From a virus (taxonomy: Duplodnaviria; Heunggongvirae; Uroviricota; Caudoviricetes): 4,907 bases of DNA. The stretch lies in the IMG/VR virus record IMGVR_UViG_2698536505_000018, one strand, 5' to 3'. How positions within the stretch are numbered: position 1 is the stretch's first letter; each line of letters begins with the position of its first letter. A program made the position numbers. This document shows, in pieces, positions 3,001-4,907 of the stretch.

Positions 3001-4907
3001 AAGCGCACCACAGGCTACCAGCAGGACAATAATCACCACACACAGAACACGGTTCATATCCCCCTCACCCCACCAGCCCTGACAAAGTTAAGACGCGCCA
3101 GGCAGTGGAAAAGCAAATAGCAACCAGCATATTAGTGAAAATGAAATGCCGACGATTACACAGAGGATCTTCGCCAGCGTTATGAGCTTGTCTGACATGC
3201 TTAATCCTCTTCACGATTTCAACGCAATGACCAGTTTTGCCAGCCCATACAGCATCGGAGACACAGCAATACCGACCGCCACCCACTTAATAGCAAAAGC
3301 CAGCGCTCTGCTGACGTCATCAGTTACAGGCGCTTTCAGTTCAAGGCCGTCTTTCATAGTCAATCTCAACAGAATTCGTTTATACTTTCCTATGTTCTCC
3401 TTTGCCTTACTCAAGGTCAGAAACACAAAACCCCGTTTGCGGCCAACAAACGAGGTTTTACTTTTATTCACTTAGCTTTTGCCAGTTCGCAGGATTTCGT
3501 GTTACCCACCCGCGTTGACCAACGTCATTTTCAGCAAAATATTCTACTTGCCTGTCAATTCCCCAGCACGCCAGTGCACTTTCCTGGTCTCGCCGGGATA
3601 CCTGACCGTAGCAATTATTTGAGCGGATACGGCAGTCTCTGCCACCGTCCTTAATCCACCAGCGAACGCTTCGCAGGCACCTTTTAGATCACCTGCATTA
3701 ATCCGTCTGTAAAACGTAGACGGGAAACACTTACCGGGGCCAATGTTATAAGGACAAAATGACGCGATACCCGCCTTCTGGGGTTCGGTCAGCGGTACTT
3801 TAATATTGCGCTCCCCCCACTCCAGCGCCTTATCACGTTCAATGGCGTTAACCTGGTCGCATTTTTCCTTCGACAACTTCATGCCCGGGACGACAGGTTT
3901 ACCATCCACTCGGGTGGTACCGCGGCAGATGGTCCAGATCCCCGCACCATCACGGTATGCCGTGGTGTGGTTACCTTCTTTTTCGTCAAGAAACTGGTCG
4001 AGGATTTCAGGCGCAGACGCCCCTGCACCAATCAGCGCCAGAACGGCAGCCGACAGGCCGTATCTGATTTTTGCGTTCATGGATATTTATCAGGGTTTAT
4101 CGATTTCAAATCCCTGGATATGTTAAGTCTTCAGGCCAGCGGTGGAGTCTTCAGAGAACCAGTAATTATTCCCGGTAGTTTTCCTCTGTAGGTTATCAAC
4201 ACATCCTGCGCCTCTAAAATTACGGGGCGCTTTTCCGGCAACGGACCATCCCCTTCACATAACCCGGCAGCAACATCCATGAAAAACTGCTTCGCCTGCT
4301 TTTTCGCCTCAGCTTCGTAAAACTCCAGCGTGGCACCTTCAGTACGGTCAAGACTAATCGCCACATCTGGCAACAACAGTGACGGATACCCACCAATTTC
4401 CAGTGCCACAGTAACAGTAACAGTAACAGTAACAGTAACAGTAATCTTATCCGGGTAATTATTTATCCCTTTAACACCCAGTTCGTATTTTTTCTTCATC
4501 GCTTTACTCCCCCCGCGCCGCCTTACGACGGTCCTCTCTGATTTTGAAATACAGGTTAGTCAGATACGTCAGCAGGCCAAACAGCAGACTCCCCAGCACA
4601 CCGATTGCCACCCACTGGGACGGAGAGACTTTGTCCAGCAGCTGCAGTAACCAGTATCCCGTCCCCACTGCTGACGTGGTGTATGACACACCTGTTGTGA
4701 TTTTTTCCATCTGATGTATGTCTCCGTCACCGCCGACAGAAAATGAAAGTAAAGAAAAACAAATAAATATCCTCCGGCATAGCCGGAGGTTTTTCAAATG
4801 CGCCTATAAGGCTCTCTTACCAGCCGCGCCCTAACAGGCGCACACGATCTGACATTTGCATCCAACTTCGTTACTTACGGCCCGTAAACGGGCTGCCCGG
4901 ATAGGGA

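What the first reader, a model, noticed from the sequence alone, without database searches (positions are those of the whole stretch)
4408..4443. In-frame hexanucleotide VNTR encoding (Thr-Val)6 inside the gene between pinholin and endolysin
Six perfect tandem copies of a 6-bp unit are unlikely by chance and are prone to slipped-strand copy-number change that preserves frame. This would vary the length of a Thr-Val linker in the 122-aa protein. Hexamer VNTRs of this kind are used for MLVA strain typing in E. coli, so the locus may be hypervariable between isolates. It sits in a gene translationally coupled to the holin, so length changes could tune a lysis-associated function.
Basis: seen in the sequence. 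Interest (0 to 1): 0.5.

Follow-up and report, generated by a model that had tools for sequence, protein, structure and literature searches.

The report
Expanded Thr-Val repeat in prophage gene
A six-copy, 6-base tandem repeat sits in frame in a small prophage gene (ydfR family) of E. coli; it is a real, slippage-driven length polymorphism (2 copies almost everywhere, 3-7 copies in one decayed, IS-bounded copy of the lysis cassette) and most likely a neutral by-product of gene decay rather than a way to tune lysis.

Summary
A perfect (ACAGTA)x6 lies at 4408-4443, in frame in a minus-strand 122-aa DUF1327/YdfR gene. That gene lies between a P21-type class II holin and a lysozyme gene.

The VNTR idea is largely right, with limits.
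- Two copies (TVTV) is the near-universal state. All full-length matches in 5,426 complete E. coli genomes have it, as do 110 of 111 IMG/VR loci and all 136 family proteins inspected.
- One module lineage carries 3, 5, 6 or 7 copies. It has a frameshifted lysozyme and an IS200C or ISEc20 element upstream of the holin.
- Alleles with 5, 6 and 7 copies sit on backbones with no mismatch to the window over 0.5-4.6 kb. The tract therefore changes faster than point substitution.

The functional reading is not supported.
- The repeat lies in a conserved beta-strand of the N-terminal domain, not in a linker.
- The AlphaFold model loses confidence with the 8-aa insertion (mean pLDDT 64.7 versus 43.9).
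- The cassette here is defunct.

I found no published MLVA scheme that uses this hexamer. Verdict: an ordinary coding microsatellite, a new member of a known kind. It could serve as a marker for this plasmid/prophage-remnant lineage.

The parts
4408..4443 (-). Perfect (ACAGTA)x6 tandem repeat. On the coding (minus) strand it reads (ACT GTT)n, giving Thr-Val x6 (residues 20-31 of the 122-aa protein). It is 24 nt (4 units) longer than the common 2-unit allele.
   Evidence: TRF result, raw sequence, translation, and the 24-nt gap against all close relatives.
4131..4499 (-). ydfR-family (DUF1327) gene, 122 aa. It is identical to the 114-aa protein annotated as WP_000731192.1 in ML35 and in the 2014C-3061 plasmid, except for the 8-aa TVTVTVTV insertion.
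   Evidence: Pfam PF07041, E 2.9e-44. phrog_406, E 2.9e-62. Comparison with the L002 and L003 proteins. RefSeq annotation 'YdfR family protein'.
4504..4710 (-). Class II (phage 21 S-type) holin gene, 68 aa. Its stop codon lies 4 nt before the ydfR ATG.
   Evidence: PF04971, E 8.8e-33. phrog_9876 holin. RefSeq 'class II holin family protein' in relatives.
3544..4080 (-). Lysozyme (endolysin) pseudogene. A 1-nt deletion near 3666 shifts the frame after about residue 136. The authentic C-terminus (...WWIKDGGRDCR...CWGIDR) is readable in another frame.
   Evidence: The Pfam Phage_lysozyme match covers only profile positions 2-105 of 125. Three-frame translation, sequence, and the indel column at 3666 against L002, L003 and L013. 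PGAP flags the homologue in relatives as an incomplete pseudogene.
2590..3057 (-). Rz-type i-spanin gene, with the embedded Rz1 ORF at 2652-2837. This is the downstream end of the lysis cassette.
   Evidence: PF03245, E 1.6e-45. phrog_13. Rz1 is called in relatives.
4768..4907 (.). End of an IS200C element inserted upstream of the holin. It includes a bidirectional terminator-like hairpin at 4771-4789. Homology to the nearest relatives, which carry ISEc20 upstream instead, stops at 4767.
   Evidence: megablast to IS200C copies at 99.5-100% identity. Terminator scan. Alignment limits. A Y1 transposase gene lies next to the holin in L021.

Best explanation
This is a coding microsatellite (hexanucleotide VNTR) that arose by replication slippage from a two-unit seed (ACT GTT ACT GTG, encoding TVTV). 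That seed is the near-universal state of ydfR/DUF1327 genes in lambdoid lysis cassettes.

In one lineage of the cassette the tract has passed the length at which slippage becomes frequent. It now exists as a series of 3, 5, 6 and 7 units, and the window carries 6. The lineage is marked by a frameshifted lysozyme. An IS200C or ISEc20 element lies upstream of the holin, and IS elements flank the whole module. It occurs on IncF-type virulence plasmids or in prophage remnants, next to the effector gene espS/ibe and a perC homologue.

Shown: the repeat, its reading frame, the allele series, and the identity of the backbones that carry 5, 6 and 7 units.

Inferred:
- The mechanism is slipped-strand mispairing whose rate rises with copy number.
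- The expansion is tolerated because the cassette is no longer expressed or selected.
- The 8-aa insertion in beta-strand 2 of the N-terminal domain damages the protein rather than tuning it. In K-12 YdfR that domain holds the RNase E-binding surface.
For: 1. The repeat is perfect and in frame.
2. Two units is the common state.
   - With a 131-nt query, the 60 best of 1,318 matching records in 5,426 complete genomes all give 107 nt with identical flanks, that is a 24-nt gap. No record scores higher.
   - The nearest relatives, at 99.0-99.2% identity over 4.7 kb, are also 24 nt shorter.
   - In IMG/VR, 110 loci carry the 2-unit pattern and 1 carries three or more units.
   - The longest TV run in 136 family proteins is 2.
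3. An allele series exists.
   - n=1 in L018, and n=3 in 17 contigs.
   - n=5 in L004-L007, n=6 in L001, L021, L026 and L028, and n=7 in L023 and L025.
4. L005, L006 and L007 (n=5), L025 (n=7) and L028 (n=6) have no mismatch to the window outside the repeat, over 0.5-4.6 kb. Both n=6 and n=7 occur on two sub-haplotypes defined by positions 4221, 4223 and 4227.
5. All alleles with n of 5 or more whose contig covers the lysozyme site, and 8 of the n=3 loci, carry the window-type frameshifted lysozyme sequence. Only one of the roughly 110 IMG/VR n=2 loci does.
6. A look-up by the frameshifted lysozyme protein, which is blind to copy number, returned n=2 twice, n=6 three times and n=7 twice.
7. 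The IMG genome that holds the n=6 copy also holds a 91%-identical prophage copy with n=2. The expansion is therefore specific to the locus, not to the strain.
8. In the structure models TVTV lies in strand 18-27 of a confident N-domain. The model of the 122-aa form drops to mean pLDDT 43.9, with residues 19-45 below 50.
9. Slipped-strand mispairing at 6-7-bp units, and a mutation rate that rises with copy number, are described for E. coli O157 VNTRs (PMC3777172, which cites Vogler et al. 2006).
Against: - The expanded alleles were partly found by searching for them, so their frequencies are not population estimates.
- The link between expansion and the frameshifted lysozyme may only reflect shared ancestry of one lineage.
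- No n=4 allele was seen.
- An n=1 allele sits in an intact-looking prophage late region, and one n=3 allele (L013) lacks the window-type deletion (extra base at 3666) and has a 177-aa lysozyme ORF. Length change is therefore not confined to dead cassettes.
- AlphaFold confidence is not a measure of stability. The inserted columns are gaps in every other row of the alignment, and that alone lowers confidence.
- Expression of the gene downstream of IS200C was not tested. A promoter inside or after the IS cannot be excluded by a consensus scan.
Confidence: 0.78

Rival explanations
1. Adaptive length tuning. Copy-number change in the Thr-Val tract is selected because it modulates YdfR activity. 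The targets could be lysis timing, through the holin-coupled gene, or binding to RNase E or RNA. The repeat would then act as a contingency-like 'tuning knob'.
For: - The gene is tightly packed behind the holin, 4 nt after its stop codon, with a GGGGAG Shine-Dalgarno-like stretch.
- The gene stays open in all alleles.
- The repeat lies within residues 1-72, the segment of K-12 YdfR that binds the RNase E N-terminal domain (PMC13232886).
- Several alleles coexist.
Against: - A 6-bp unit can never break the frame, so an open gene is not evidence of selection.
- Intact phages and prophages carry n=2 in every full-length match examined; the one exception seen is the n=1 allele in L018.
- The expanded alleles sit in a cassette with a frameshifted lysozyme and an IS with a terminator-like hairpin upstream.
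- The repeat lies in a length-invariant beta-strand, not a linker.
- The model confidence collapses with the insertion.
Confidence: 0.08
2. A fixed historical insertion. One or two duplication events produced the long tract. It is now a stable lineage marker with no ongoing change, and the apparent allele series comes from recombination between prophage copies.
For: - Mosaic tracts occur around the repeat. L022, L024 and L120 carry n=2 together with a block of 13 SNPs between 4221 and 4693 on the same outer haplotype.
- n=6 equals twice n=3, so a single whole-tract duplication is possible.
Against: - n=5, n=6 and n=7 occur on backbones with no mismatch to the window, so no flanking SNP marks a recombination tract.
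- No donor with 5 or 7 units is known outside this lineage.
- n=6 and n=7 each occur on two sub-haplotypes.
Confidence: 0.1
3. An assembly or sequencing artefact. The extra units would have been introduced by mis-assembly of a short repeat.
For: Most carriers are short-read draft contigs. One contig (L029) ends inside the repeat.
Against: - The whole tract is 36 nt, shorter than a read.
- The same 6-unit allele appears in five independent records: the window, one IMG/VR contig and three NCBI assemblies.
- The 5-unit allele appears in three assemblies and one metagenome, and the 7-unit allele in two assemblies.
Confidence: 0.02

Closest known systems
Hexanucleotide VNTR loci used for MLVA of E. 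coli O157:H7 (Vhec/O157-n loci)
   Same: - 6-bp unit in a perfect head-to-tail array.
- Changes occur in whole units.
- Slipped-strand mispairing is the accepted mechanism.
- Longer alleles are more mutable (PMC3777172).
   Different: - I found no published scheme that uses this locus.
- It is monomorphic (n=2) in the O157, O145, O103 and other complete genomes.
- It varies only in one IS-bounded remnant lineage.
- The alleles are short (up to 7 units), whereas the most mutable O157 locus has more than 22 repeat units in 7 of its alleles.
YdfR of the E. coli K-12 Qin prophage (DUF1327, P76160)
   Same: Same Pfam family, and the same position between the holin and the lysozyme of a lambdoid lysis cassette. 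For K-12 YdfR, residues 1-72 bind the catalytic half of RNase E and the protein may bind RNA (PMC13232886).
   Different: The window protein carries an 8-aa insertion in beta-strand 2 of that N-terminal domain. Its own binding to RNase E or RNA has not been tested. K-12 YdfR is 103 aa; common forms in this search are 114-116, 176, 183 and 211 aa.
Phase-variable contingency loci (simple-sequence repeats that switch genes on and off)
   Same: A slippage-prone simple repeat inside a gene of an accessory element.
   Different: The unit length is a multiple of three, so the reading frame never changes. The array is not in a promoter. No on/off switching is possible, only a change in protein length.

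Membership tests
VNTR / coding microsatellite driven by slipped-strand mispairing | Head-to-tail tandem copies of a short unit, far beyond chance | tested here: met
   TRF reports period 6, 6.2 copies and 100% matches. Chance expectation is about 8.5e-15.
VNTR / coding microsatellite driven by slipped-strand mispairing | Copy number differs between isolates by whole units at the same locus | tested here: met
   Alleles n=1, 2, 3, 5, 6 and 7 have identical flanks. Alleles with 5, 6 and 7 units lie on backbones with no mismatch to the window.
VNTR / coding microsatellite driven by slipped-strand mispairing | Measured mutation rate above the point-substitution rate and rising with copy number | not testable with these tools
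   This is only inferred, from three alleles on identical backbones and from the stability of n=2 in more than 1,000 records. It needs passage experiments.
Published MLVA typing locus of E. coli | The locus or repeat motif is listed in a published MLVA scheme | tested here: not met
   Full-text searches paired 'MLVA' with 10 of the 12 rotations of the hexamer and found no paper. AACAGT was searched only on its own, with 25 of 73 hits read, none an MLVA paper. TTACTG was not searched. The library is limited to open-access text, so absence is not proof.
Published MLVA typing locus of E. coli | Polymorphic in the target population (for example O157:H7) | tested here: not met
   All full-length matches in complete genomes, including O157:H7, O145:H28 and O103:H2, have two units.
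DUF1327 / YdfR family | Pfam PF07041 match above the gathering score | tested here: met
   149.7 bits against a cut-off of 25, E 2.9e-44, covering residues 1-120.
DUF1327 / YdfR family | Position between the class II holin and the lysozyme of a lambdoid lysis cassette | tested here: met
   Gene order in the window, in relatives and in phages H-19B and BP-4795.
DUF1327 / YdfR family | Binding to the RNase E N-terminal domain, as reported for K-12 YdfR | not testable with these tools
   Known only from the literature (PMC13232886).
Phase-variable contingency locus | A repeat-number change shifts the reading frame or the promoter spacing and so switches expression | tested here: not met
   The unit is 6 bp, in frame and internal to the ORF. 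Every allele gives an open gene of 112-124 aa.
Functional pinholin / SAR-endolysin lysis cassette (phage 21 type) | P21-type class II holin | tested here: met
   PF04971, E 8.8e-33.
Functional pinholin / SAR-endolysin lysis cassette (phage 21 type) | Intact endolysin | tested here: not met
   A 1-nt deletion near 3666 shifts the frame, and the authentic C-terminus is in another frame. The Pfam match stops at profile position 105 of 125.
Functional pinholin / SAR-endolysin lysis cassette (phage 21 type) | Linked to a late promoter and Q antiterminator upstream of the holin | tested here: not met
   IS200C lies upstream with a terminator-like hairpin at 4771-4789. Relatives carry ISEc20 there instead. 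An intact layout, with Q upstream, is seen in L018.

The most novel reading that the evidence does not exclude
The Thr-Val tract could be a selected length-variable element of YdfR. Lengthening beta-strand 2 of the domain that contacts RNase E (and possibly RNA) would create functionally distinct variants of a prophage-encoded RNase E partner. The plasmid-borne copy would be free to explore these lengths. The repeat would then be a protein-level tuning knob in a host-takeover factor.
Probability: 0.06. Interest if true: 0.55.

Novelty: new member of a known kind. Interest (0 to 1): 0.27.

Why it matters
- **Practical use.** The locus could be a cheap PCR-sizing marker for sub-typing one family of IS-bounded effector modules (espS/ibe, perC homologue, lysis-cassette remnant). 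These modules occur on IncF-type plasmids and in prophage remnants of EPEC/STEC-like E. coli, where flanking sequence shows no variation.
- **Concept.** It is a clean natural example of microsatellite threshold behaviour. A two-unit seed is stable in thousands of prophage copies. Copies of 5-7 units change on otherwise identical backbones, apparently once the gene sits in a decaying cassette.
- **Limit.** It reveals no new mechanism, and there is no evidence that it regulates lysis.

Tried and rejected
1. **Exact-sequence look-up of the 122-aa protein and of synthetic (TV)n variants.** It reported n=6 and n=7 as absent from the collection. Contigs that encode them were later found by looking up the neighbouring lysozyme. 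The look-up is not exhaustive, so the 'absent' result for n=4 and n=8 is weak.
2. **My first reading.** I took the locus to be a unique, non-variable expansion, because complete genomes, GTDB species representatives and JGI metagenome contigs showed no allele with three or more units. Searches overturned this.
3. **Scan of GTDB representative genomes for the 2-unit pattern.** It found nothing, so it gave no species distribution.
4. **Hairpin-assisted slippage.** Neither strand of the repeat folds better than shuffled sequence (z 1.56 and 0.14), so nothing supports a structure-promoted mechanism.
6. **Literature searches for the hexamer in MLVA papers.** They found nothing relevant.
7. **Whether the n=2 alleles on the window's outer haplotype (L022, L024, L120) are ancestral or were introduced by gene conversion.** This could not be resolved.

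Full report
**Observation**

Tandem Repeats Finder reports a single strong array in the window. It lies at 4408-4444, with period 6, 6.2 copies, 100% matches, no indels and consensus ACAGTA. The raw sequence agrees. For a random sequence of this length the expected number of such runs is about 8.5e-15.

The array lies inside minus-strand ORF 4131..4499 (122 aa). On the coding strand the codons are ACT GTT, so the product reads ...NNYPDK-I-(TV)6-ALEIGG.... The observation, its coordinates and the '(Thr-Val)6, in frame' reading are therefore correct.

**What the gene and its surroundings are**

The 122-aa product is a DUF1327/YdfR-family protein (PF07041, E 2.9e-44; phrog_406). The other genes of the cassette are:

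| Position relative to ydfR | Coordinates (minus strand) | Identity | Source |
|---|---|---|---|
| Upstream; its stop codon lies 4 nt before the ydfR ATG | 4504..4710 | P21-type class II holin (PF04971) | |
| Downstream | 3544..4080 | Lysozyme ORF (PF00959) | |
| Further downstream | 2590..3057 | Rz, with Rz1 embedded | |

The order holin, ydfR, lysozyme is common in lambdoid and Stx phages such as H-19B and BP-4795. It is also common in E. coli prophages: 3,114 of 5,426 complete genomes have a match.

In this window the cassette is decayed.
- A 1-nt deletion near 3666 shifts the lysozyme frame after about residue 136. The authentic C-terminus (...WWIKDGGRDCR...CWGIDR) can be read in another frame.
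- Bases 4768-4907 are the end of an IS200C element. It carries a bidirectional terminator-like hairpin at 4771-4789, about 60 nt upstream of the holin start. The consensus scan found no sigma-70-like site on the gene's strand between the hairpin and the holin.
- The left end of the window (1-124) is an IS3-family end.

The nearest relatives are 99.0-99.2% identical over window 1-4767. They place the same module on 82-101-kb plasmids that carry RepA/RepB-type replication genes, or in strain ML35 next to chromosomal tra genes. In those records the module is flanked by IS3 and ISEc20, and it lies next to the effector gene espS/ibe, an nleH pseudogene and a perC homologue.

**Copy number elsewhere: the bulk**

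- With a 131-nt query centred on the repeat, the 60 best of 1,318 matching records in 5,426 complete E. coli genomes all align over 107 nt with identical flanks. That is a 24-nt gap, or two units. Any allele with three or more units on similar flanks would have ranked higher, and none did.
- The same 24-nt deficit is seen in the closest 4.7-kb relatives and in the phage records.
- In IMG/VR the exact 2-unit pattern occurs in 110 loci, and a pattern requiring three or more units occurs in one.
- Among 136 family proteins (cluster representatives and members) the longest TV run is 2.
- In an alignment of 39 homologues at 62-98% identity, this segment has no length variation at all.

Over most of its distribution, then, the locus is not variable.

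**Copy number elsewhere: the expanded lineage**

Exact look-ups of synthetic (TV)n variants, followed by context look-ups, revealed an allele series on the same flanks.

| Units | Where found |
|---|---|
| 1 | L018, in an intact-looking prophage late region with Q upstream |
| 3 | 17 contigs, plus 2 on a second protein backbone |
| 5 | L004-L007: three assemblies and one metagenome |
| 6 | The window, L001 (IMG/VR), L021, L026, L028 |
| 7 | L023, L025 |

L005, L006 and L007 (n=5), L025 (n=7) and L028 (n=6) have no mismatch to the window outside the repeat, over 0.5-4.6 kb. L001 differs by one synonymous base.

A table of variable sites defines an outer haplotype: T2926, T3401, A3453, C3547, the deletion at 3666 and C3815. 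This haplotype carries n=5, 6 and 7. Both n=6 and n=7 occur on two sub-haplotypes that differ at 4221, 4223 and 4227. This points to recurrent single-unit steps, or to recombination.

The n=3 group has a slightly different haplotype but shares the lysozyme frameshift. The two nearest n=2 relatives examined here (L002, L003) lack the frameshift.

A look-up by the frameshifted lysozyme protein is blind to copy number. It returned n=2 twice, n=6 three times and n=7 twice. The n=2 copies on this haplotype (L022, L024, L120) carry a block of 13 SNPs between 4221 and 4693. They may therefore be gene-conversion products or an older state, and I could not decide which.

The IMG genome that holds the 6-unit copy also holds a second prophage copy, 91% identical, with two units. 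The expansion is thus a property of the locus, not of a mutator strain.

**Mechanism**

The pattern fits slipped-strand mispairing whose rate rises with tract length. The points that fit are whole-unit changes, a mode at 6 flanked by 5 and 7 on identical backbones, and stability at two units in more than a thousand other copies. This is how 6-7-bp VNTRs of E. coli O157:H7 are described (PMC3777172, which cites Vogler et al. 2006).

How the tract went from 2-3 to 5-7 units is not shown. A duplication of a whole 3-unit tract followed by single steps up and down would fit the missing n=4. That is an inference. Neither strand of the repeat folds better than shuffled controls, so there is no sign of hairpin-assisted slippage.

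**Consequence for the protein**

The AlphaFold model of the ordinary 114-aa form has a confident N-terminal domain. Block-mean pLDDT is 73-91 over residues 1-70. Strands lie at 5-14, 18-27 and 38-43, and a helix at 50-73. TVTV sits inside strand 18-27, paired with strand 5-14. It is therefore a strand core, not a linker.

With the 8-aa insertion the model falls to mean pLDDT 43.9, with residues 19-45 below 50. This is only suggestive. The inserted columns are gaps in every other row of the alignment, and AlphaFold confidence does not measure stability.

For K-12 YdfR, a 2026 study reports three things: binding to the catalytic N-terminal half of RNase E, an interaction surface within residues 1-72, and possible RNA binding (PMC13232886). 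The repeat lies in that domain.

- The VNTR and slippage idea is supported, but only for one lineage. The general expectation of hypervariability between isolates is not met.
- I found no published MLVA scheme that uses this hexamer. Ten of its 12 rotations were paired with 'MLVA' in full-text searches; the other two were not.
- 'Linker' is contradicted by the model and by the invariant length of the segment across the family.
- 'Tuning a lysis-associated function' is unlikely here. The lysozyme is frameshifted and an IS with a terminator-like hairpin separates the cassette from any late promoter. A 6-bp unit keeps the frame open whether or not selection acts.
- The most economical reading is neutral expansion in a gene that is no longer under selection.
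- The link between expansion and the frameshifted lysozyme fits that reading. It is confounded by shared ancestry and by the way I found the alleles.

**Novelty and interest**

This is a new member of a known kind: a coding hexanucleotide VNTR in a prophage-derived gene. It could be a convenient marker for sub-typing this plasmid or remnant module. It is also a tidy natural example of microsatellite threshold behaviour. It reveals no new mechanism.

The most novel reading not excluded is that the length variants of the RNase E-contacting domain are functional and selected. I rate that at about 6%.

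Noticed in passing
window 3544-4080 (-), deletion near 3666: The lysozyme gene is frameshifted by a 1-nt deletion. The authentic C-terminus (...WWIKDGGRDCR...CWGIDR) is in another frame and has no stop codon directly after GIDR. The two nearest n=2 relatives (L002, L003) lack the deletion, but PGAP still flags their gene as incomplete.
   Followed up: partly
window 4768-4907; L031 (E. coli E2348/69) 4790-5614: An IS200C end with a bidirectional terminator-like hairpin (4771-4789) lies about 60 nt upstream of the holin. The same IS200C/holin junction occurs in a prophage of EPEC E2348/69 at 99.5% identity over window 4715-4907. 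That cassette runs holin, RrrD, Rz and has no ydfR gene.
   Followed up: partly
window 155-1030 (-), 1303-1735, 1812-2126 (-): Virulence cargo lies next to the lysis remnant. There is a 291-aa T3SS effector (PHROG 'Ibe', RefSeq 'EspS'). An nleH pseudogene is annotated in relatives at the matching position. There is also a PerC-family regulator.
   Followed up: partly
window 1-124; L002 12526-12648: The left end of the window is an IS3-family terminus that recurs inverted on the other side of the module in relatives. The whole 4.7-kb block is IS-bounded, which explains why draft assemblies yield it as a separate 4.6-5 kb contig.
   Followed up: no
L001 and L109 (IMG genome 2695420632): One genome holds both the 6-unit copy and a second prophage copy, 91% identical, with 2 units.
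   Followed up: yes
proteins P0001-P0003 and P0005 (family members): The same gene family shows other in-frame duplications. P0005 repeats KKQA (AEAKKQAKKQAKQ). P0001-P0003 have large internal duplications of most of the protein, which may be assembly artefacts.
   Followed up: no
window 4330-4458 (+): ACAGTA reads Thr-Val on both strands (ACA GTA and ACT GTT). The antisense ORF therefore also shows TVTVTV. I treat this as a curiosity of the unit, not as evidence of a gene.
   Followed up: no
window 2181-2254: An A-rich imperfect tandem region (periods 8 and 25; 70-74% matches) lies in the spacer between the perC homologue and Rz.
   Followed up: no
L022, L024, L120 against window 4221-4693: The 2-unit copies on the window's outer haplotype carry a block of 13 SNPs spanning ydfR and the holin. 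This is a mosaic or gene-conversion tract between paralogous prophage cassettes.
   Followed up: partly
[not shown]
   Followed up: no
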